Shown here one piece after another: positions 34,524-44,034 of a stretch of DNA of 64,000 nucleotides. The DNA is from Lentimicrobiaceae bacterium (GTDB taxonomy: Bacteria; Bacteroidota; Bacteroidia; Bacteroidales; UBA4417): contig JBGSUB010000080.1 of assembly GCA_041753535.1 (NCBI GenBank), forward strand, positions 92,208 through 156,207, written 5' to 3'. The notes under the pieces are model-generated. The model did not search any database and had not been told where the DNA came from. It saw nothing but the letters and a program-made list of their open reading frames with translations. The translations under genes and the position numbers were made by a program. Each line of letters starts with the position of its first letter. Position 1 is the stretch's first letter.

Positions 34524-35609
34524 ATGGAAAAATTTTATGATAACCTTCTGTTAATCTATTATTCCGGCACCGGTAACTCGAACCGTGTATCGGAATGGAT
34601 ACAGGAAGTTGCACAAAAAGGCGAAATGAAAACCCATATCGCTTCTTTTCATCAATTCAATCCGGATGATATAGCTGACTTTGAAGGAAAAACCCTCATC
34701 GGGTTTTTCTCTGCAACGCATGGCTTTAATATGCCACATTCCATGCTTAAATTCCTTTTTGGATTTAAGTTGCTGAAAGGATCAGATGTATTTATCGGGA
34801 ATACACGAGCCGGGATGAAACTATGGAAACTTTTTATGCCAGGTCTGAGTGGAATTGCCATGTATTTCCCTGCATTGATCATGCTATTAAAAGGATATAA
34901 ACTAAAAGCCATGTACCCGGTTGACCTGCCATCGAACTGGATTTCGCTTCACCCTGGCCTGCGGAAGAAAGTGATTGATTCGATGGCTGAACATTACGAG
35001 AAACTTACAAAAAATTTTGCCGGAAAAGTCCTTTTAGGTAAACGGGTATTTCTTAAATCCTTTGTTCTACTTCCCCTCGACATTTTGGTTGCACCCATAG
35101 CTTTCGGGTATTATTTTGTCGGAAGGTACATAATTGCCAAAACATTTATTGCCAACAGTAACTGTAACCTTTGTGGAATATGTATTGAGCAATGTCCTAC
35201 GAAGTCTATTATTCTGGCCGACAACCGACCTTACTGGAAATTCAGTTGCGAAAGCTGTATGAAATGCATGAATTATTGCCCTCAAAGAGCAATTGAAACA
35301 GCGCATTCTATGTTATTCCTTATACTTCTGGTTCTTATTCAGTTTGTTAACCCTTTCATTTCTGACAAGGTTACCGACTTGGTTGCGTCGTTATTCGGAC
35401 ATTCCCGTGTAGCTTTCGAATCCATTTATTTTGTGATTCAATGGTCGGTTGCATTGTTGTTTTTCTTTTTGGGGTACAAACTGCTGCATTACCTGATGGG
35501 ATTCCCAAGGGTTAATAAAATACTGACTTACACTACATTAACAACATGGAAATTCTGGAGGCGGTATAAAATGCCGAAGCATGTGTCTGCACACCCGAAG
35601 GGTGACTGA
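34524..35609 (+). CDS. EFR1-family ferredoxin (flavodoxin-like domain, 4Fe-4S dicluster, C-terminal TM helices)
   Basis: LLIYYSGTGNSNRV flavodoxin-like N-terminus. CNLCGICIEQCP and CESCMKCMNYCP clusters. Hydrophobic C-terminal segments. Confidence 0.75.
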   Translation: MEKFYDNLLLIYYSGTGNSNRVSEWIQEVAQKGEMKTHIASFHQFNPDDIADFEGKTLIGFFSATHGFNMPHSMLKFLFGFKLLKGSDVFIGNTRAGMKLWKLFMPGLSGIAMYFPALIMLLKGYKLKAMYPVDLPSNWISLHPGLRKKVIDSMAEHYEKLTKNFAGKVLLGKRVFLKSFVLLPLDILVAPIAFGYYFVGRYIIAKTFIANSNCNLCGICIEQCPTKSIILADNRPYWKFSCESCMKCMNYCPQRAIETAHSMLFLILLVLIQFVNPFISDKVTDLVASLFGHSRVAFESIYFVIQWSVALLFFFLGYKLLHYLMGFPRVNKILTYTTLTTWKFWRRYKMPKHVSAHPKGD

Positions 35610-35664
35610 ACACATGCTGGCTTGCAGGATTGTAAATTATAAAAAATTTGGATTTTACTTTGGG

Positions 35665-35709
35665 GAGTTTTGTGTGCAGACACCTTTCAGGTGTTCAGAC
35701 ACAAAACTC
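35665..35709. terminator. long hairpin between convergent genes (probable bidirectional terminator)
   Basis: GAGTTTTGTGT...ACACCT-ttc-AGGTGT...ACACAAAACTC: 11-bp plus 6-bp helices with an internal loop. No strong U-tract. Confidence 0.5.
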
Positions 35710-35727
35710 ACCTCTGCAAACACAAAG

Positions 35728-38073
35728 CTAAAACATAACCGGTAAATTCATAGCAACTTTCACAGGTTTGCCATTTTGCATACCTGGTTTCCATTTCCCA
35801 CTGGTAAGTTTTATAACTCTTAAGGCTTCCTCATCACAACCGCCACCAATACCGCGAAGGACTTTTACATCAGTAACTTTTCCTTTTTTATCGACTGTGA
35901 AACTGACATAAACACTTCCTTTTATGCCTTTCTCTTTTGCCTGTTGCGGATAGTTAATACTTGCAGCCAGAAATGCCTCTAAACCCATTTCTCCCCCGAT
36001 AAATTCCGGCATGGTTTCCACAACAATAAAAGGCATTTCACTTTCTTCTTTTACCTTGATTACGTCATTGGATTGAACTTCCTGAACGGTACATCCAGTT
36101 GATCTTTTCTCCATTGGAACTTTGTAAGCCGAAATAGTAACACCTCCAACTGCATGATCACTAACACCTTCAGGCAGAGGCAATGGCTGGTTAACTGTTG
36201 TTGAATTGCTTTCCTTGTTACGGATGTCATTATCAATCGCTATAAACGACGTATAGGCCGTCAACAGGTTGTATTTCAGCCCAAGTTCAATAATGGCTGG
36301 CTTATACTCATCTGTGCCATTGTATCCGCTTGATGCATAATCGCTTAATGTTCGTATGCGTTCCCGGGCCCACAGATACCTGATTGCTGAATTCGATTCT
36401 GATATTTTTGCTGTGCTGGCAAGTAGTCTGCTTTCATATTCACCTTCGCCGTTCAGGCCTTTTATAGTAATATTACCCGATGGTGTGCCCCTGTATTTGC
36501 CAAAAATAATCACTGGCCTTTCGGAAAAAACATCCGGAACGCTAAGGGGTTCTAAATCATAAACATCAAAATTGTTGTAGCTTACGCTGATATGCGTTAA
36601 TACAGGGTTTTGAACATATTTCCTGAACTTTTCAGCAATTGCTTCAGCTTCATCGGGTTTTGTTATCACGAAAGGCATTCCCATTCCAACATGAGCCAAG
36701 CCTTCTATTAATAAACGATTAACTGAAGTCCCTATTCCGAAAGCGAAGAAATTGGCTTTGTCCATGTTTTTACGAATAAGGTCAAAAGCTTCCTTTTCGA
36801 CAGTTACATATCCATCGGTTGCAATTACAAAGCTCCGGGCAAAACCTTCAGTACCTTTCAAATTGAGTGCTCTTTTCAAGGCTGGCAACAGTTCAGTACC
36901 ACCTCCACCCTGCTCGTGATCAATAAAATTTATAGCTTTTTCAATATTGGCTCCATTGGCCGAAAGCGAAGTTTCACTTAACAGATTTGAAGCTCCGGCA
37001 AATAATAAAACATTAAAGCGATCAGTCGAATGCAGGTTTCCGATAAGATCGCGAAGCAGCTTTTTCGAAATATCAAGAGGGTAGCCATTCATGGAACCTG
37101 ATACGTCAACAATAAATACGTATTCACGCGGAGGAATTACTGAGAGTTTAACTTGTTTTGGAGGCTGAATCATTGCCAGGAAGAAATTTTCATCCTTTCC
37201 TGGGTAAAACAGTATTCCTGACTGTACCTTATTACCTGCCAGCCGGTATTTCAGGATAAAATCGCGGTTACCACCCTGCTTTTCTTCCGGCTTTAGCCTA
37301 ATAACGGCATCAGAAGGACTGTCAAATTTTATATCCGTTTTGTGCGAGGTACACATTACATCACTTACCGGCATTCCTGCATTAAGATCACATTTCAGGC
37401 TGAAGGTGTACAATGGATTTTCACCTTCGTGTGTATACGGATTGCCAACCCACTGCTCGCGGGGCGTAGCCGTAACTGCAGGCTGGTTGCTATAGCGGGG
37501 ACCAACTACGGTAGGATAAACAAATTCATAAACGCCGTCTTCGGGTACCAGCAGTTCTGTGTACCTGAGTTCAACACGGATGCGATCGCCGGGCATTATA
37601 TTGGCAACGTTCATCTGGAAAACATTGGGCCTTTCCTGCTCCAGCAGCGAAGCACTTTTACCCTGCTGTTTGGCGGCTTCGTAATCGAGTTGTGCTTGTT
37701 CGCGTTCCGAAATTTTTGCAATTATTGTGCGTTCACCTATTGTCATTTTCATACTGTAAACAGCAGCGCGGGTCGAAGCCGGAAACACATAAATCGCTTC
37801 AATCGGTTTTTTGCCTTCGTTGGCATATTCCTGAACCACGCTTACATCGGCTATAACTCCTGCGATATTTACCTCCGCCGAAGTAGCCTTAAGCGGAAGC
37901 TGATCGAGGTTCGGATTATCGGATTTTACAAAGAAATAGGGTGAAAGGGTTTTATCAGGTTCGGACTTCTGAGCGGGAGAGAATTGCCGTGAGGAGGCAA
38001 TCATGGTTCCTGCTGAAATAAGTATTATTGGCAGCGCACCAAATAATGTATGGAAAATAAGTCTTGTTTTCAT
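35728..38073 (-). CDS. VIT domain, von Willebrand A domain and C-terminal TonB_C domain protein
   Basis: N-terminal signal/TM. VIT-like SPYFFVKSD...LPLKATSAEVNIAGVIADVSVVQEY. vWA with MIDAS FIVDVSGSM. C-terminal ETMPEFIGG...GSVYVSFTVDKKGKVTDVKVLRGIGGGCDEEALRVI...KPGMQNGKPV. Confidence 0.85.
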   Translation of the reverse strand: MKTRLIFHTLFGALPIILISAGTMIASSRQFSPAQKSEPDKTLSPYFFVKSDNPNLDQLPLKATSAEVNIAGVIADVSVVQEYANEGKKPIEAIYVFPASTRAAVYSMKMTIGERTIIAKISEREQAQLDYEAAKQQGKSASLLEQERPNVFQMNVANIMPGDRIRVELRYTELLVPEDGVYEFVYPTVVGPRYSNQPAVTATPREQWVGNPYTHEGENPLYTFSLKCDLNAGMPVSDVMCTSHKTDIKFDSPSDAVIRLKPEEKQGGNRDFILKYRLAGNKVQSGILFYPGKDENFFLAMIQPPKQVKLSVIPPREYVFIVDVSGSMNGYPLDISKKLLRDLIGNLHSTDRFNVLLFAGASNLLSETSLSANGANIEKAINFIDHEQGGGGTELLPALKRALNLKGTEGFARSFVIATDGYVTVEKEAFDLIRKNMDKANFFAFGIGTSVNRLLIEGLAHVGMGMPFVITKPDEAEAIAEKFRKYVQNPVLTHISVSYNNFDVYDLEPLSVPDVFSERPVIIFGKYRGTPSGNITIKGLNGEGEYESRLLASTAKISESNSAIRYLWARERIRTLSDYASSGYNGTDEYKPAIIELGLKYNLLTAYTSFIAIDNDIRNKESNSTTVNQPLPLPEGVSDHAVGGVTISAYKVPMEKRSTGCTVQEVQSNDVIKVKEESEMPFIVVETMPEFIGGEMGLEAFLAASINYPQQAKEKGIKGSVYVSFTVDKKGKVTDVKVLRGIGGGCDEEALRVIKLTSGKWKPGMQNGKPVKVAMNLPVMF

Positions 38074-38138
38074 AGCGGGTAAATTTGAAGTAATAAGTGT
38101 TGAAATAATTGTTGAATAATTTCTTCTAAATCAGTTTC

Positions 38139-38822
38139 CTATTGCAATTTGAAGATTACCGGTATCGTGAACGAAACCCTGACCGGTTTGCCTTGCTGGC
38201 TACCAGGTTTCCATGCCGGCAACATGCTGATTACCCGTTCTGCTTCTTTATCACAATCATCGTTTATGCCGCGGAGGGTTTTGATATTGCTGACTTTCCC
38301 ATCTCTTTCAACAACAAAATAGACATATACTGTTCCCTGTATTCCGGTTTGAACAGCTGTGGAAGGAAAATCAATATTTTTCGCAAGAAAGGCTTGCAGC
38401 GCACTGATGCCTCCCGGAAATTCAGGCATAATTTGCACTACAACAAGAGGAATGTCATCTTTAACAGATTCTTCGTCAGCAAGCTTAATTGTTGCAGGAG
38501 GTGTATAAATAGGTATTTCGTACCCGGGATTAATTTCCATGTCAATATCCGGTACATCTTTTGTTGGATCATCGTTACTAACAAAGTTGAGCATGGGTGC
38601 CAAAACAGGTTTAGGCGCCGGTTTCTGGTCCTCTATAACGGTATTTTTAATAACTATATCATCCTCAACACCTTCCCATTGATCAATTACAGCTATTTGT
38701 TTAACCGGCGATTCCCACTCAAAAGCTGCGAGCGACAGCCCGAGTGCAACAATAAGTCCAACCTGCAAAAAAATACTTTTCTTTGGCTCGAGGTCGACGC
38801 GTTTCGATTTCTTTGTTTCCAT
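38139..38822 (-). CDS. tonB: energy transducer TonB
   Basis: N-terminal TM anchor, Pro-containing linker, TonB_C: QIMPEFPGG...GTVYVYFVVERDGKVSNIKTLRGINDDCDKEAERVI...KPGSQQGKPV. Confidence 0.88.
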   Translation of the reverse strand: METKKSKRVDLEPKKSIFLQVGLIVALGLSLAAFEWESPVKQIAVIDQWEGVEDDIVIKNTVIEDQKPAPKPVLAPMLNFVSNDDPTKDVPDIDMEINPGYEIPIYTPPATIKLADEESVKDDIPLVVVQIMPEFPGGISALQAFLAKNIDFPSTAVQTGIQGTVYVYFVVERDGKVSNIKTLRGINDDCDKEAERVISMLPAWKPGSQQGKPVRVSFTIPVIFKLQ

Positions 38823-38950
38823 GGCTAGTGATATTAGAGGGTTAGCAATTTGTGTTTACAAACAGGAGATGCGCGTAAACAGGAATTTCCATAAATGCAT
38901 GAAAAACTTTTTTTAACTGCCTTCGTAACCCTTACTCTAATCACTCTATG

Positions 38951-39021
38951 CATTCTCCCTAAATCCTAAATCCTAAATCCTAACTAACCCCTAACCCCCA
39001 ACCCCTAAATACTATATCTTT
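38951..39021 (+). repeat. 71-nt G-free leader built of CCTAA(A/C) words directly upstream of the sigma-factor start
   Basis: No G between 38951 and 39021. (CCTAAAT)3 then CCTAACTAACCCCTAACCCCCAACCCCTAAAT. TAA triplets fall in all three frames. Confidence 0.9.
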
Positions 39022-39658
39022 GTATAAATTCCTCCAAAACGTGGCCCTCCGTTTTTTCCGTAAAGACGATAAAAAAGAACTGCTTTCTTTACCTGATGAG
39101 CAGCTGGTAGCGCGCTATGCCCGGACACACGACAAGGAAATAATTGGTGTACTTTACGAACGTTATACTCACCTGCTGTTTACAGTTTGTTACAAATACC
39201 TGGGCAACGATGCGGATGCCGAGGATACGGTGATGCTGGTATTCGAAAAGCTTTTCGAGTTGCTTAAGAAGTCAGAAATCAATAATTTTAAAAGCTGGGT
39301 TTATACCATTACCAAAAACGAATGCCTGATGCAGCTCAGGCACAAAAAATCCGGCGAACGTGTAAAAGAAGAGAACTTAAAAAAACTGGACTTTGAAATT
39401 ATGGAATCCGCGGAGCCTGATCATCTGTTAAATGGTGGAAATGGCTCAGGAGAACACCGCATACGCTGCCTCGAAACCGCTATAACCGGTCTGAGTTCAG
39501 AGCAAAAACAATGCATTGAATTGTTTTACCTGGACGAAAAATCGTACCGAGAGGTTGAACAGATAACAGGATTTACCTATAACGAAGTTAAAAGCCATAT
39601 TCAAAACGGCAAACGCAATCTGAAGCAAATGATGGAAAGGATAGAACGCTATGAGTGA
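39020..39658 (+). CDS. RNA polymerase ECF-type sigma-70 family factor
   Basis: Region 2-like YERYTHLLFTVCYKYL...DAEDTVMLVFEKL. Region 4 HTH CIELFYLDEKSYREVEQITGFTYNEVKSHIQNGKRNL. Start uncertain (TTG at 39020 or GTG at 39041). Confidence 0.85.
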   Translation: MYKFLQNVALRFFRKDDKKELLSLPDEQLVARYARTHDKEIIGVLYERYTHLLFTVCYKYLGNDADAEDTVMLVFEKLFELLKKSEINNFKSWVYTITKNECLMQLRHKKSGERVKEENLKKLDFEIMESAEPDHLLNGGNGSGEHRIRCLETAITGLSSEQKQCIELFYLDEKSYREVEQITGFTYNEVKSHIQNGKRNLKQMMERIERYE

Positions 39659-40901
39659 CACGAATAACAAGTCGTCGGCTCCCTTCACGCCCTCCGGTTG
39701 CCTTTCAGGCGATGCGCTGATGCTGTTCGTTACCGGATCGCTTTCGGATTCCGATCTGAAGCTGGCACAGCAACATATCTCTGAATGTCCTTTATGCGCC
39801 GATGCTGCCGACGGGCTAAAAATGTGGCTTCAGGAGCAAACGCCTGATCAGCAGGACTCGGTAAAAGAGTCAGATAGTTTAAAATCCGAAACGTCCGGAT
39901 TATCGGTGAAACCGCCTCTTGAAAAAGGATATAAAAGTAAATCTCCGGGCACAGCAGCTTATAAATTCCATACTCGGACAGAAGGAATTAATGAGCGTAT
40001 TAAGCAACGGGTGAATTTCCATAAAGAAGTTGACGCAGTTCAACACAAACGCAGGCAAATAAAACCCTATGCGTGGATAGGAGCAGCTGCAACGGTAGTG
40101 CTTTTCCTGAGTATTTTTTATATTCTACGTGTACAAAACCTGTTCGACAAACAGGAATTGGCTCGGAAAAATATCATTCAGGAAAAAGAACAGAACTCAA
40201 TTATTGAAAACTCAGACTCCATCTTAAAATCTTCAAACCTTGCGTTAAAAGAGGAAAACCAATTTAAAGTGAAACGGTCCTCCGAAATACCCAATGCTAT
40301 ACCTGTAATTAGTAATGATGAAATATCCAGTTATCAGAATAACAGTATTATAGAAGATTTATCCTTGGAAGAGATAGCTGAAGCAGAAAAGTTTGATACA
40401 TCTGTAACCGAAAACAACAATTCTCCGACTGAAGTAGCTGGTACGGTGATCACAGCTTATAAAGTTCCTTTGGAGAAAAAGTCAACGGGATATGCCGTTA
40501 TGGAAGAAAAACCTGTACCGGAGATTGATGGGGTTAAGGTTAATAAATCGAAAAGAAGTGAGAATAAGGAAAAGGAATCAGAAGAAGTGATTTTTACTAT
40601 TGTTGAACAAATGCCTGAATTTCCGGGCGGACAGGAAAAAATGCTTGATTTTCTCTCTGAAAATCTCAAATACCCCGATTCAGCAAAAGAAAGCGGAATA
40701 CAGGGAACCGTTTATATTTCTTTCGTGGTACGAAAGGATGGCCGGATTTCGGAGGTTAAAGTTTTAAGAAGCATAGGCGGAGGATGCGACGAAGAGGCTG
40801 TGCGCGTTGTAAAAAAAATGCCCCGATGGAAACCTGCAACCCAAAGAGGGAAAAAAGTGGATGTATTGTTTAATTTGCCGATAGTATTTAAACTTGATTA
40901 G
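39651..40901 (+). CDS. anti-sigma factor (zf-HC2-like) with one TM segment and a C-terminal TonB_C domain
   Basis: 8-nt overlap with the sigma gene. HISECPLCADAADG. TM segment YAWIGAAATVVLFLSIFYIL. C-terminal EQMPEFPGG...GTVYISFVVRKDGRISEVKVLRSIGGGCDEEAVRVV...KPATQRGKKV. Confidence 0.8.
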   Translation: MSDTNNKSSAPFTPSGCLSGDALMLFVTGSLSDSDLKLAQQHISECPLCADAADGLKMWLQEQTPDQQDSVKESDSLKSETSGLSVKPPLEKGYKSKSPGTAAYKFHTRTEGINERIKQRVNFHKEVDAVQHKRRQIKPYAWIGAAATVVLFLSIFYILRVQNLFDKQELARKNIIQEKEQNSIIENSDSILKSSNLALKEENQFKVKRSSEIPNAIPVISNDEISSYQNNSIIEDLSLEEIAEAEKFDTSVTENNNSPTEVAGTVITAYKVPLEKKSTGYAVMEEKPVPEIDGVKVNKSKRSENKEKESEEVIFTIVEQMPEFPGGQEKMLDFLSENLKYPDSAKESGIQGTVYISFVVRKDGRISEVKVLRSIGGGCDEEAVRVVKKMPRWKPATQRGKKVDVLFNLPIVFKLD

Positions 40902-41031
40902 TACTTTACGATTTTTATTTATCGGCTAAGCATTTCATTGTGCCTGGTTCCATTATCGTATTCGGCCAAATTACTTCACAAAAAACATTACTTTTGTTTA
41001 TACCTGTTTTGTTAACCAAAAACTGTTTCTT

Positions 41032-44000
41032 ATGAAACCAGCATTTACAGTCTTATGCAGTTTACTTTCAGTTTTACTTACCGCAATTATTGTACCTCAA
41101 AAAGCATATTCCCAGGTAGTTATAAATGAATACTCCTGTTCTAATTTCGACAGTTTTCCTGACGACTTTATGGAGTACGGCGACTGGCTGGAATTGTATA
41201 ACACAGGAAGCAATGCTGCCAACATATCAGGATATTACCTCAGCGATAATCCCGCTGCACCGCAGAAATGGCAAATCCCGGCCGGGGCAGTTATTCCTGC
41301 AAACGGCTTTCTTCGTTTTTGGGCATCGGGCCGCGACCTGGCAAATCCCGAAAATTTTCATACCAGTTTTAAATTTACCCAGACCAAAACGACACCTGAG
41401 TCCATAGTTTTTGCCGACCCATCAGGAATAATTATCGACCAGCAACAGCTCTCCATCACACAGAAAGGACATTCGAATGGACGGAAACCAAATGGCGGTA
41501 ACGAATGGAATGTTTTTACAACGCCAACTCCCGGAGGACCCAACAATACAACTGCCTATTTTCGCTATACCGAAAAACCGGTTATGAGTAGTACAAGTGG
41601 TTTCTATGATAACAGCCTGACAGTAAGTATCTCCACCAACGAACCGAACGCTAAAATACGTTACACTACAAATGGCAACGAACCTAATGCAACATCATCG
41701 CAATACACAGCCCCCATATCGGTAAGCGCGACCAAAGTATTAAAAGCCAGGGTCTTCAGCAACGATGCCACCATTCTTCCTGGTCTTATCGAGTTCAACA
41801 CATATTTTATCAACGAAAATTTTACATTACCGGTAATATCTATTTCTGCCAATGACCTGACCACTCTTTTAAATGGAAACGGGAACATCACTCCATGGGG
41901 ATCAATCGAATATTTTAATGCTGATAAAATCCGAACCACAACGGGTTATGGAGAATTCGACAGGCACGGACAGGATTCATGGGCACATCCTCAGCGAAGC
42001 CTCGATTATAAAATGCGCGACGAATGCGGGTACAATTATGCTTTACTCGAAAAGCTGTTTTCGGATACCGACAGGGATGAATATCAGAAAGTGATACTGC
42101 GTGCCTGTGGTGATGATAACTACCCCGGAATTGACTCAAGTGCCCAGGTTCGTGATGATTTTGTACAAACCGTTTCGGTAAAAGCCGGAATGAGTCTCGA
42201 TGAGCGCAAATCGGCACGGTGTATCATTTTTGCAAACGGTCAGTATTGGGGAGTTTATTCTATCCGCGAAAAACCAAATGACCACGATTACACAAAGTAC
42301 TATTACGACCAGGAAAAATATGATTTGTATTACCTGATGCTTTGGGGTAGTACCTGGGCCGAATATGGCGGCCAGGAAGCTTTTGACGACTGGAATGCAC
42401 TTTATACTTACATTATGACCCATAATATGGCGGTTCAGTCGAACTTTGATTATGTTGAGTCGCAGTACGATCCCACAAGCCTGACCAACTATATGCTGCT
42501 CAACTCATTCGTAGTATGTTCCGACTGGCTCAACTGGAATGTGGGATGGTGGAAAGGAACCAATCCAAACGGCAGCCATAAACGCTGGGGATATATGCTC
42601 TGGGACGAAGATGCAACCTTTAGCCATTATATTAATTATACCGGGATTCCGGCCCAGGATCCCTATGTGGCTCCCTGTTTCCAGGAAGATATTACCGGTT
42701 CGTCCGATCCCGAAGGACATGTGAAAGTGCTGAACAGGTTGTTGCAGAATCCGGGCTTTAAGCAATATTACATCTCGCGGTATGCCGATCTGCTGAATAC
42801 CGCTTTTAAACCTTCGAATATGATCCCGCTTTTCGACAGCCTCGTTGGACTGATTGCTCCCGAAATGCAGAGACATTGTACCCGCTGGGGAGGCAATGTT
42901 TCGCAATGGAACGAAAATGTGCAGAAAATACGCAATTTTGTCACAACAAGGTATAGTGTTGTTTCGGCGGGCATTAACGAATGTTATTCGGTAACTGGAC
43001 CATACCAGCTGGTTGTGAATATGGAGCCCCCTGCAGCCGGACAGGTTCAGGTTAATTCGCTTACGCTGAATAATTTGCCATGGTCAGGTAATTATTATGG
43101 TGGAATGGACACAAAACTTTCGGCAATTGAAACAAACCAGCAATATAAATTCGATCACTGGACTGTGAATAACAATGTTATTTTACCTTTTGATACAGCC
43201 CAGAATATCAGGATTAAATTAACTTCGGCTGACACCGTAACGGCCGTATTTATACCCAGGGTTTTCTCTGATTCATTGGTTATCAACGAAATAAATTACA
43301 ATTCCGCGCCCGATTTTGATCCTGGTGATTGGGTTGAATTGTACAATCCTATGGATCATTCAGTGGATATTTCAGGATGGGTTTTTAAGGATGAAGACGA
43401 TCTACACGCCTATACATTTGCTTCCGGCACACAAATTCCGTCGAAGGGCTATATTGTTATTGCTAATGATATGACGGCATTTCATAATTTATTCCCAATG
43501 GTTACCAATTATGTCGGTTCTATGGGATTTGGATTTGCCGGTGGCGGAGAACTGTTAAGGGTTTTTAATAATTCAGGAACCCTGATAGATACTGTTAATT
43601 ACGATGATGTTGCTCCCTGGCCAACCCGGCCTGACGGTCAAGGTGCGACCTTGGAATTGATTTCGCCTGACCTGGATAATGCCCTTGGCCAGAACTGGAA
43701 AGCCAGCGGAATAACAACGCATGGAACACCGGGTGAAGGAAACAGTATAAATGTTGGGCTCGATACACCTGTTGCCGCCGAAAAACTTACATTAACCATT
43801 TATCCGAATCCTTTCCGTAACACGGCAATGTTGAAAATTAATACGGCCTCCGTGATTAATGACGGTATGTTGGAAATCTACAACCTTGCCGGGCCGAAAG
43901 TTCAGCAGTTTGATCATATTTCATCGAAGCAGGTGGAGCTTAACAGAAGCGGGCTTCAGCCGGGTTGTTATATTCTCCGGTTTACAAATCTTGCCGGAAA

Positions 44001-44034
44001 CCTTACAGGCGTTGGAAAGATGATGGTGGAATGA
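41032..44034 (+). CDS. secreted CotH-family protein with two lamin-tail (LTD) domains, a chitobiase/hexosaminidase-C-like domain and a T9SS C-terminal sorting domain
   Basis: Signal peptide. LTD VVINEYS...GDWLELYNTG...ISGYYLSD and again LVINEINYNS...GDWVELYNPMD...ISGWVFKD. CotH-like core (RSLDYKMRDE...YWGVYSIREKPN). C-terminal LTIYPNPFRNTAMLKI... Confidence 0.8.
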   Translation: MKPAFTVLCSLLSVLLTAIIVPQKAYSQVVINEYSCSNFDSFPDDFMEYGDWLELYNTGSNAANISGYYLSDNPAAPQKWQIPAGAVIPANGFLRFWASGRDLANPENFHTSFKFTQTKTTPESIVFADPSGIIIDQQQLSITQKGHSNGRKPNGGNEWNVFTTPTPGGPNNTTAYFRYTEKPVMSSTSGFYDNSLTVSISTNEPNAKIRYTTNGNEPNATSSQYTAPISVSATKVLKARVFSNDATILPGLIEFNTYFINENFTLPVISISANDLTTLLNGNGNITPWGSIEYFNADKIRTTTGYGEFDRHGQDSWAHPQRSLDYKMRDECGYNYALLEKLFSDTDRDEYQKVILRACGDDNYPGIDSSAQVRDDFVQTVSVKAGMSLDERKSARCIIFANGQYWGVYSIREKPNDHDYTKYYYDQEKYDLYYLMLWGSTWAEYGGQEAFDDWNALYTYIMTHNMAVQSNFDYVESQYDPTSLTNYMLLNSFVVCSDWLNWNVGWWKGTNPNGSHKRWGYMLWDEDATFSHYINYTGIPAQDPYVAPCFQEDITGSSDPEGHVKVLNRLLQNPGFKQYYISRYADLLNTAFKPSNMIPLFDSLVGLIAPEMQRHCTRWGGNVSQWNENVQKIRNFVTTRYSVVSAGINECYSVTGPYQLVVNMEPPAAGQVQVNSLTLNNLPWSGNYYGGMDTKLSAIETNQQYKFDHWTVNNNVILPFDTAQNIRIKLTSADTVTAVFIPRVFSDSLVINEINYNSAPDFDPGDWVELYNPMDHSVDISGWVFKDEDDLHAYTFASGTQIPSKGYIVIANDMTAFHNLFPMVTNYVGSMGFGFAGGGELLRVFNNSGTLIDTVNYDDVAPWPTRPDGQGATLELISPDLDNALGQNWKASGITTHGTPGEGNSINVGLDTPVAAEKLTLTIYPNPFRNTAMLKINTASVINDGMLEIYNLAGPKVQQFDHISSKQVELNRSGLQPGCYILRFTNLAGNLTGVGKMMVE

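What the first reader, a model, noticed from the sequence alone, without database searches (positions are those of the whole stretch)
36076..40508. Both TonB_C fusion proteins carry an internal segment resembling the TonB-box / plug N-terminus of SusC-type receptors
VIT-vWA-TonB_C has GGVTISAYKVPMEKRSTGCTVQEV (aa 643-666, nt 36076-36147, minus strand). The anti-sigma has GTVITAYKVPLEKKSTGYAVMEE (nt 40440-40508). The two segments align without gaps, and each sits a short linker upstream of the protein's own TonB_C domain. The stand-alone TonB lacks the segment. As I remember it, the start of Bacteroidota TonB-dependent receptor plugs reads roughly VVVTALGIKREKKSLGYAVQEV, and the pattern V-(I/V)-T/S-A-x-x-x-x-x-E-K-(K/R)-S-x-G-(Y/C)-(A/T)-V is strikingly similar. 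A TonB-box-like strand placed next to a TonB_C domain suggests two possibilities. One is intramolecular auto-inhibition, relieved when a real receptor TonB box displaces the strand. The other is a hand-off between the cluster's TonB_C proteins.
Basis: inference. Interest (0 to 1): 0.65.

Follow-up and report, generated by a model that had tools for sequence, protein, structure and literature searches.

The report
TonB-box-like motif in TonB_C fusion proteins
Two neighbouring envelope proteins, an anti-sigma factor and a VIT-vWA protein, each carry a diverged copy of the short "TonB box" strand of SusC-type outer-membrane transporters in a floppy linker just before their own TonB-type domain, which suggests the transporter/TonB docking pair has been reused to wire a signalling cluster together.

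Summary
Both segments exist at the stated coordinates and align without gaps (15 of 23 identical).

The resemblance to SusC-type TonB-box/plug N-termini is real, but it shows only through relatives:
- Pfam Plug, NCBIfam SusC, PDB and tblastn give nothing significant for the window's own segments.
- Orthologues of both proteins carry a canonical VVVTALGIxRxKKSLGY at the same position (E 1e-14 against an HMM of 12 annotated SusC/RagA proteins).
- A graded series of intermediates leads to the window's TVITAYKVPLEKKSTGY.
- A window-type profile matches a transporter profile (hhalign 96.5%, 32 ungapped columns).

The motif is a 29-residue island of conservation in a variable linker. It is confined to a Lentimicrobiaceae-like clade.

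The two copies co-vary within genomes. The anti-sigma copy occurs only where the VIT-vWA-TonB_C gene is present.

AlphaFold2 leaves the segment disordered (pLDDT 35-48) beside a confident TonB_C, so cis auto-inhibition gains no support.

Best reading (about 0.45): a TonB-box-type linear motif bound in trans by a TonB_C domain of the cluster.

This is a new variant of a known kind, of moderate interest.

The parts
35728..38073 (-). VIT-vWA-TonB_C protein, 781 aa, with a hydrophobic N-terminus (signal peptide or anchor)
   Evidence: Pfam VIT 1e-34, VWA_3 2e-14 and TonB_C 4e-20. NCBIfam TIGR03788 scores 412 bits, below its 552 cut-off. The gene is syntenic in 10 related loci.
36076..36147 (-). 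TonB-box/plug-start-like segment of the VIT protein, GGVTISAYKVPMEKRSTGCTVQEV (aa 643-666)
   Evidence: Translation. Orthologues read NGVVVTALGISREKKSLGY here: L093 E 1.4e-14, L104 and L106 about 1e-14 with the transporter HMM. AlphaFold2 gives pLDDT 40-46, coil.
35731..35958 (-). TonB_C domain of the VIT protein (aa 706-781)
   Evidence: Pfam PF03544 covers profile positions 3-77 of 79. AlphaFold2 pLDDT is 96-98.
38139..38822 (-). Stand-alone TonB, 227 aa, without the segment
   Evidence: Pfam TonB_C 1.3e-16. The alignment shows no counterpart of the motif, and the transporter HMM gives no hit.
39020..39658 (+). ECF sigma factor
   Evidence: Pfam Sigma70_r2 7e-14 and Sigma70_r4_2 1e-10. Its stop overlaps the anti-sigma start.
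39651..40901 (+). Anti-sigma factor built like a TonB: cytoplasmic HxxxCxxC domain, one TM helix, about 125 disordered periplasmic residues, then TonB_C
   Evidence: H42, C46 and C49 are invariant in 50 orthologues. zf-HC2 is a weak hit (E 0.22). The AlphaFold2 model has helix 102-185, pLDDT <50 over 188-311, and TonB_C at pLDDT >94.
40440..40508 (+). TonB-box/plug-start-like segment of the anti-sigma factor, GTVITAYKVPLEKKSTGYAVMEE (aa 264-286)
   Evidence: Translation. It is a 29-column insertion and an island of conservation in 27 of 50 orthologues. Transporter-HMM scores fall in a graded series across orthologues from 1.8e-14 to 0.075. hhalign gives 96.5%. AlphaFold2 gives pLDDT 35-42, coil.
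40662..40895 (+). TonB_C domain of the anti-sigma factor (aa 338-415)
   Evidence: Pfam PF03544 1.5e-21, profile positions 2-79 of 79. PDB TonB C-terminal domains match at E 4e-6.
41032..44034 (+). CotH / lamin-tail / T9SS-sorted protein downstream of the sigma/anti-sigma pair; a likely regulon member (inference)
   Evidence: Pfam CotH 2e-32, LTD 4e-31 and Por_Secre_tail 5e-9. It holds the same position in L094-L097 and L099.

Best explanation
What it is (high confidence, about 0.9): each segment is a diverged copy of the N-terminal signature of SusC/RagA-type TonB-dependent transporters. That signature is the TonB-box strand (VVVTA) plus the roughly 12 residues leading into the plug (LGIxRxKKSLGY). 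Here it sits as a short linear motif in a disordered periplasmic tether just upstream of a TonB_C domain.

How it most likely works (inference, about 0.45): the motif is a docking strand bound in trans, by beta-augmentation, by a TonB_C domain encoded in the same cluster. The most likely partner is the TonB_C of the other fusion protein. In that case the VIT-vWA protein and the TonB-like anti-sigma factor are physically coupled, and the state of the VIT-vWA protein can be relayed to the ECF sigma factor.

What is shown: the homology, the linker location, the conservation, the co-variation and the co-occurrence. What is inferred: the binding itself and its partner.
For: Homology
- Orthologues of the anti-sigma factor read VEGVVVTALGI[ST]R[ED]KKSLGY at the aligned position.
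- They score E 1.8e-14 to 1e-7 against an HMM of 12 annotated SusC/RagA N-termini. Intermediates (VVVTAYGIAKEKKSLGN, IVISAYKVPMEKKSLGY) lead stepwise to the window's form.
- tblastn of the L001 segment against 7.3 Gb of plasmids returns 35 records. Almost every annotated feature under the match is a SusC/RagA or TonB-dependent receptor.
- VIT orthologues likewise read NGVVVTALGISREKKSLGY.
- hhalign of the window-type profile against the transporter profile gives prob 96.5%, E 8e-10, 32 ungapped columns.
- In Bt1763 the matching VDEVVV is the experimentally required TonB box (PMC7782687).

Selection
- The motif is an island of conservation (mean top-residue frequency 0.66-0.70) in a linker at 0.3-0.45.

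Not a folded domain
- AlphaFold2 puts it in a disordered tether.

Link between the two proteins
- The two motifs resemble each other more within a genome than between genomes. The summed within-genome (matched-pair) alignment score exceeds all but 3 of 720 permutations among motif-bearing genomes, and all but 5 of 40,320 with 8 genomes.
- The TonB_C domains behave as ordinary orthologues: 68-76% identity between genomes against 47-56% within.
- The anti-sigma factor has a full or short motif in 10/10 loci that encode VIT-vWA-TonB_C. It has none in 3/3 loci that lack that gene, although a TonB is present in all.

Precedent
- TonB boxes outside transporters are known to bind TonB in colicins (PMC11658791).
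Against: - No binding was tested, and no complex could be modelled.
- The window's own segments are individually insignificant against transporter models.
- The co-occurrence and co-variation follow clades, so they may reflect only two or three evolutionary events.
- Local gene conversion could produce the within-genome similarity without any shared partner. Same-codon use is 10/14 in the segment against 20/49 in TonB_C.
- The motif is missing from most of the wider VIT-vWA-TonB_C family: only 4 of 75 metagenome relatives have it. It is also missing from about half of the anti-sigma orthologues. It is therefore not essential to either protein.
Confidence: 0.45

Rival explanations
1. Cis auto-inhibition. 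The segment folds back onto the TonB_C of its own chain and occupies the beta3 edge until a real transporter TonB box displaces it.
For: The motif always lies 14-52 residues upstream of the protein's own TonB_C, and the flexible linker is long enough to reach back. The motif is transporter-like, so it is a plausible competitor.
Against: Two AlphaFold2 runs used orthologue alignments of 50 and 24 sequences. Both leave the segment as coil at pLDDT 35-48, while TonB_C is at >95. A cis role also does not explain why the anti-sigma motif is absent exactly where the VIT gene is absent.
Confidence: 0.15
2. Handle for the energised TonB. The stand-alone TonB/ExbBD motor grips the segment and pulls on the tether. 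This would mechanically expose the anti-sigma factor to proteolysis or dislodge the VIT-vWA protein, by analogy with TonB-driven release of the FecR C-terminal fragment.
For: A TonB gene lies between the two fusion genes in every locus examined. TonB-driven force is known to trigger anti-sigma cleavage in the Fec system (bioRxiv 10.1101/2025.01.06.631622).
Against: Loci with a TonB and the sigma/anti-sigma pair but no VIT gene have no motif in the anti-sigma factor (L099, L100, L103). The motif therefore tracks VIT, not TonB. Two different TonB types (227 aa, and 262 aa with the 1TM_TonB_rel family) accompany motif-bearing proteins.
Confidence: 0.15
3. Decaying relic or unrelated role. The segment would be what remains of a larger transporter N-terminal module once fused to TonB_C, as in CarbopepD_reg-TonB box-Plug-TonB_C proteins. 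It now has no TonB_C-binding function, or serves something else such as a protease site.
For: Fusions of transporter N-terminal domains with TonB_C exist (P0070, P0020, P0024). The motif decays along the family to EEVxVMKEESK and then to nothing. Most VIT-vWA-TonB_C relatives lack it.
Against: It is the best-conserved stretch of an otherwise free-running linker across 27 orthologues. It is kept in two different proteins of the same genome, and the two copies change together.
Confidence: 0.2
4. Chance or purely convergent resemblance with no relation to transporter TonB boxes.
For: Direct searches with the window's own segments find nothing.
Against: Canonical copies occur at the homologous position in orthologues at E 1e-14, with a continuous series of intermediates. 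The profile-profile match is in a single ungapped register.
Confidence: 0.03

Closest known systems
TonB box plus plug N-terminus of SusC/RagA-family TonB-dependent transporters (e.g. BT_2264, PDB 5fq6; Bt1763 TonB box VDEVVV)
   Same: The sequence signature is the same: (D/E/G)-V-V-V-T-A-L-G-I-x-R-x-K-K-S-L-G-Y. It is canonical in orthologues and diverged in the window. The register also matches.
   Different: No NTE domain, no plug fold and no barrel follow it. It lies in the periplasmic linker of inner-membrane or periplasmic proteins that themselves end in a TonB_C domain.
TonB boxes of TonB-dependent colicins and pyocins (e.g. colicin M)
   Same: Both are TonB-box strands in proteins that are not transporters, set in a disordered region and used as a docking site for TonB (PMC11658791).
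   Different: Those are imported toxins. Here the motif is in endogenous envelope proteins, next to a TonB_C domain in the same chain. It includes the SusC-specific extension after the box.
Cell-surface signalling of the FecA/FecR/FecI type
   Same: An ECF sigma factor is paired with a single-pass anti-sigma factor whose periplasmic part contacts the Ton system.
   Different: There is no FecR domain, no transporter signalling domain and no transporter in the window. The anti-sigma periplasmic part is a TonB-like tether plus TonB_C, and the partner gene is a VIT-vWA protein.
Bacteroidota multi-domain proteins that fuse transporter N-terminal modules with TonB_C (P0070: CarbopepD_reg_2 - LDEVVVVGYGT - partial Plug - 3x TonB_C; M56/BlaR1-TonB_C-CarbopepD_reg proteins)
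   Same: A TonB-box-like strand and TonB_C domain(s) lie in one polypeptide.
   Different: Those keep recognisable NTE or Plug domains. The window proteins keep only about 25 residues, in a different host architecture (a ZAS anti-sigma factor and a VIT-vWA protein). I found no paper on the function of either kind.

Membership tests
TonB-dependent transporter (SusC/RagA; Pfam Plug PF07715 plus barrel PF00593; NCBIfam TIGR04056) | Plug domain followed by a 22-strand barrel | tested here: not met
   Neither protein, nor the isolated segments, gives a Plug, barrel or SusC hit, even at E<=10. They are not transporters.
TonB box (functional motif) | Sequence signature of the SusC-type box and its downstream extension | tested here: met
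   hhalign 96.5%, E 8e-10. Orthologues score E 1e-14 with the transporter HMM, with graded intermediates. The window sequences alone are weak: E 0.075 among 262 proteins and 5.6 among 19,516.
TonB box (functional motif) | Binds the beta3 edge of a TonB C-terminal domain as an added strand | not testable with these tools
   Only single-chain AlphaFold2 was available, and no cis docking was predicted. Trans complexes could not be modelled.
TonB family (TonB_C, PF03544) | C-terminal TonB_C domain | tested here: met
   E 4e-20, 1.5e-21 and 1.3e-16 for the three proteins, covering nearly the full profile. PDB TonB C-terminal domains match at E 4e-6. AlphaFold2 pLDDT is >95.
TonB family (energy transducer) | N-terminal TM helix coupled to ExbB/ExbD | not tested
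   No exbB or exbD gene was looked for. The anti-sigma TM helix follows a cytoplasmic anti-sigma domain, which argues against a motor role (inference only).
ZAS-type anti-sigma factor (zf-HC2, PF13490) | HxxxCxxC motif, a gene directly downstream of and overlapping an ECF sigma gene, and a single TM helix | tested here: met
   H42, C46 and C49 are invariant in 50 orthologues. The overlap is 39651 against 39658. The TM helix is in the model. The Pfam score itself is below threshold (E 0.22).
Marine proteobacterial sortase target (TIGR03788, VIT-vWA) | Full-length match above the curated cut-off, and a C-terminal sortase signal | tested here: not met
   412.7 bits against a cut-off of 551.65. 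The C-terminus is a TonB_C domain instead of a sorting signal.

The most novel reading that the evidence does not exclude
The TonB-box/TonB_C pair has been taken out of its transport context and reused as a plug-and-socket connector. A VIT-vWA sensor protein and a TonB-shaped ZAS anti-sigma factor would hold each other by reciprocal box-into-TonB_C docking, or compete for one TonB_C. This would form a previously undescribed envelope signalling route to an ECF sigma factor that needs no transporter signalling domain and no FecR-type domain.
Probability: 0.25. Interest if true: 0.75.

Novelty: new variant of a known kind. Interest (0 to 1): 0.55.

Why it matters
TonB boxes are known as the handle by which TonB grips outer-membrane transporters, and as a handle copied by colicins. 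This finding would add two things.

- A conserved, co-evolving SusC-type box inside endogenous proteins that themselves carry TonB_C would mean the box/TonB_C interaction also serves as a general periplasmic protein-protein connector.
- It would give a concrete, testable hypothesis for the many unstudied "TonB family protein" fusions of Bacteroidota: anti-sigma-TonB_C, VIT-vWA-TonB_C, and M56-TonB_C-CarbopepD_reg.

It also defines a conserved six-gene cluster whose output is probably a CotH/LTD protein secreted by the T9SS.

Tried and rejected
Searches that found nothing
- Word-indexed protein searches with the 46-residue segments found nothing, alone and as a 6-sequence alignment. The word filter needs three shared 5-mers.
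- Direct Pfam and NCBIfam scans of the proteins and of the isolated segments found no Plug or SusC hit.
- PDB phmmer with the window segment found only an irrelevant hit. A 6-segment profile placed BT_2264 second, in the right register, but at E 0.8.
- tblastn of both window segments against plasmids found no match.

Searches that were uninformative
- The HMMER scan of 1.84 billion representatives with segment plus TonB_C was swamped by multi-TonB_C proteins. It yielded only one informative orthologue, P0084.
- Literature searches found no description of a TonB box inside a TonB_C-bearing protein.

Leads considered and dropped
- The transporter inserted in locus L092 between TonB and sigma was considered as the cognate partner. 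Its TonB box (LPEVEIKAQ) is unlike the segment, and the gene is absent from the other loci.
- A second possible transporter-type motif occurs in distant VIT relatives (GETVVVGYGTSNHALQGRMAGV). It could not be substantiated: the only hit was one SusC protein at E 6.
- Whole-module gene conversion was rejected, because the TonB_C domains are more similar between orthologues than between paralogues. Conversion limited to the motif remains possible.

Full report
**Observation**

Translating the stated coordinates reproduces both peptides exactly. They belong to two ORFs.
- ORF 35728-38073(-) is 781 aa, with VIT, vWA and TonB_C domains.
- ORF 39651-40901(+) is 416 aa and ends in TonB_C.

The second ORF starts inside the stop region of an ECF sigma gene (39020-39658). 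It has H42-x3-C46-x2-C49 invariant in 50 orthologues. AlphaFold2 models it as a cytoplasmic helical domain, one long TM-containing helix (102-185), about 125 residues at pLDDT <50, and a TonB_C at pLDDT >94. It is therefore a ZAS-type anti-sigma factor whose periplasmic half is built like TonB.

A stand-alone TonB (38139-38822) lies between the two genes and lacks the segment. The two segments align without gaps in otherwise unalignable linkers.

**Is the resemblance to transporter N-termini real?**

Direct tests with the window's own sequences fail.
- Pfam Plug and NCBIfam SusC models give nothing even at E<=10.
- PDB gives nothing.
- tblastn against 7.3 Gb of plasmids gives nothing.
- There is no transporter gene in the window to compare with.

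It hits the SusC-like BT_2264 (5fq6; EVVVTAMGIKRSEKALGYA, E 1e-4). Twelve annotated SusC/RagA proteins fetched from plasmids give LDEVVVTALGIKREKKSLGYAVQEVKG. In Bt1763 the corresponding VDEVVV is the experimentally required TonB box (PMC7782687).

The decisive evidence comes from relatives.
- A genome scan and a protein search returned about 75 full-length orthologues of the anti-sigma factor.
- In the 27 closest, the position of the window's segment is occupied by VEGVVVTALGI[ST]R[ED]KKSLGY or graded variants. Examples are VVVTAYGIAKEKKSLGN, VVVTASKVASEKKSMGY, IVISAYKVPMEKKSLGY and TQITAYKIPMEKKSLGN.
- An HMM was built only from the 12 transporter N-termini. It scores these orthologues from E 1.8e-14 through 1e-7, 5e-6, 1e-3 and 4e-3 (a 76%-identical relative), down to 0.075 for the window protein, always at the same place.
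- Against 19,516 six-frame ORFs, the two Lentimicrobiaceae orthologues score 2e-11 and 3e-10. The window protein ranks about seventh at E 5.6.
- tblastn with one orthologue's 34-residue segment returns 35 plasmid records. The annotated feature under the match is almost always a SusC/RagA or TonB-dependent receptor.
- The VIT-vWA-TonB_C orthologues behave the same way. L093, L104 and L106 read NGVVVTALGISREKKSLGY (E about 1e-14), L107 scores 1.6e-8, and L094 keeps ...CKSLGYAVQEV (4.5e-7). The window protein scores 0.1.
hhalign gives probability 96.5% and E 8e-10.

The similarity is therefore real and best explained by common descent of the motif. The window carries a diverged form.

**Anatomy and distribution**

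In the orthologue alignment the motif is a clean 29-column block, present in 27 of 50 sequences. It is an island of conservation: mean top-residue frequency is 0.66-0.70, against 0.3-0.45 in the flanking linker.

Somewhat more distant orthologues keep only a short EEV[TA][VL]MKEESK. The most distant keep nothing.

Among 75 distinct metagenomic VIT-vWA-TonB_C relatives, only four have a significant motif, and large rumen clades have none. The motif is thus confined to a Lentimicrobiaceae-like clade of Bacteroidales.

**Gene context**

The cluster is conserved in all long contigs examined:
- an Fe-S/FAD oxidoreductase
- an Fe-S/flavodoxin membrane protein
- VIT-vWA-TonB_C plus TonB
- divergently, ECF sigma, the anti-sigma-TonB_C and (in most loci examined) a CotH/LTD or other T9SS-sorted protein

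**Two patterns that bear on mechanism**

First, the two motifs of one genome resemble each other more than they resemble their orthologues.
- The window has AYKVPxEK[KR]STG in both proteins.
- L093 has VVVTALGI[ST]R[ED]KKSLG in both.
- L094 has SLGYAVQE in both.
- L018 has KKSK in both.
- Register-free local-alignment scores of anti-sigma linker against VIT linker give a summed within-genome (matched-pair) score that is exceeded or equalled by only 3 of 720 permutations among six motif-bearing genomes. With eight genomes the figure is 5 of 40,320.
- The TonB_C domains do not show this. Orthologues are 68-76% identical and within-genome paralogues 47-56%.
- So either the motifs co-evolve with a shared partner, or a short tract is homogenised by gene conversion. 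The second possibility has mild support: 10 of 14 identical residues share the codon in the segment, against 20 of 49 in TonB_C.

Second, the anti-sigma motif tracks the VIT gene.
- The full motif occurs with an adjacent VIT gene carrying a motif in 7 of 7 loci.
- The short motif occurs with a VIT gene carrying a degenerate APMLEKKSxNY in 3 of 3 loci.
- No motif occurs together with no VIT gene in 3 of 3 loci, although a TonB gene is present in all.
- These groups are clades, so the number of independent events is small.

**Structure prediction**

Two AlphaFold2 runs were made.
- The full anti-sigma factor with 50 orthologues.
- The VIT C-terminal 163 residues with 24 motif-bearing modules.

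Both predict TonB_C at pLDDT >95. Both leave the segment as coil at pLDDT 35-48. The segment is therefore not part of another folded domain. It is also not predicted to augment the sheet of its own TonB_C. This weakens the cis auto-inhibition idea without excluding it. Complexes could not be modelled.

**Explanation**

I commit to the following. The segment is a SusC-type TonB-box/plug-start motif, kept under selection as a short linear motif in a disordered periplasmic tether. It most likely serves as a docking strand for a TonB_C domain in trans. That would couple the VIT-vWA protein to the TonB-like anti-sigma factor, either by reciprocal docking or by competition for one TonB_C (confidence about 0.45).

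Rivals:
- cis auto-inhibition (0.15)
- a handle for the energised stand-alone TonB, by analogy with TonB-driven release of the FecR fragment (0.15)
- a decaying relic or an unrelated role (0.2)
- chance (0.03)

**Comparison with what is known**

TonB boxes outside transporters are known in colicins (PMC11658791). Fusions of transporter N-terminal domains with TonB_C exist in the databases. Examples are P0070 (CarbopepD_reg_2, LDEVVVVGYGT, partial Plug, three TonB_C domains) and M56-TonB_C-CarbopepD_reg proteins.

I found no paper describing a TonB box within a TonB_C-bearing anti-sigma factor or VIT-vWA protein.

The proteins are not transporters, since Plug and barrel were tested and not met. 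They are members of the TonB_C superfamily and, for the second protein, of the ZAS anti-sigma factors.

**Verdict**

The finding is a new variant of a known kind and of moderate interest. It rests on solid sequence evidence for what the motif is, and on indirect evidence for how it works.

Noticed in passing
window 34524-44034; loci L092-L103: A conserved cluster recurs across Lentimicrobiaceae-like genomes. It comprises an Fe-S/FAD oxidoreductase, an Fe-S/flavodoxin membrane protein, VIT-vWA-TonB_C, TonB, ECF sigma, anti-sigma-TonB_C and, in most loci examined, a CotH/LTD/T9SS protein. The CotH/LTD protein (41032-44034) is a likely target of the sigma factor.
   Followed up: partly
P0070, P0020, P0024, P0037, P0137: Other Bacteroidota TonB_C proteins carry canonical TonB-box strands (LDEVVVVGYGT, KMLDEVVVVAY). 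Some also have CarbopepD_reg_2 and partial Plug domains next to 3-4 tandem TonB_C domains, and some sit in M56/BlaR1 sensors.
   Followed up: partly
P0239, P0243-P0262 (M56-TonB_C proteins), residues ~79-105: A conserved LNEVIVTPDGQPxLPEVTVTT, two TonB-box-like strands, sits in an N-terminal loop of BlaR1-like M56 proteins that end in TonB_C domains.
   Followed up: no
L098, L101, L102, L109, L111 and P0181-P0201: A sister clade has a shortened anti-sigma motif, EEV[TA][VL]MKEESK. Its VIT partner keeps only the second half, APMLEKKSxNY. The two halves of the transporter signature appear split between the partners.
   Followed up: partly
L151, L153, L160, L177 (VIT-vWA-TonB_C relatives): The linker reads GETVVVGYGTSNHALQGRMAGVSVSDVKGN. 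From memory this resembles the other SusC signature (VVVGYGT ... LQGRxAGV). The only tblastn hit was one SusC/RagA protein at E 6, so this is unproven.
   Followed up: partly
L006, L011, L012, L024, L026 (TonB) and L152, L162, L165, L168 (VIT relatives): Many Bacteroidota TonB linkers, and some VIT linkers, share FTPPVIKxDxEV ... ISVADVKGN ... VDIADVK. The ADVKG part faintly recalls the AVQEVKG that follows the transporter motif.
   Followed up: no
L092 5826-9292: One related locus has a lipoprotein gene and a non-SusC transporter (CarbopepD_reg_2, Plug, barrel) inserted between TonB and sigma. Its TonB box, LPEVEIKAQ, is unlike the segment. The VIT gene of that locus looks frameshifted inside the motif.
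   Followed up: partly
loci L094-L096, L098-L101, L103 versus window, L092, L093, L098, L102: Two different TonB types accompany the cluster: a 227-aa form as in the window, and a 262-289-aa form matching Pfam 1TM_TonB_rel. L098 has both.
   Followed up: no
window 38142-38828 (+) and 37342-37944 (+): Long ORFs (228 and 200 aa) lie antisense to the TonB and VIT genes. They have no domain evidence and are probably shadow ORFs.
   Followed up: no
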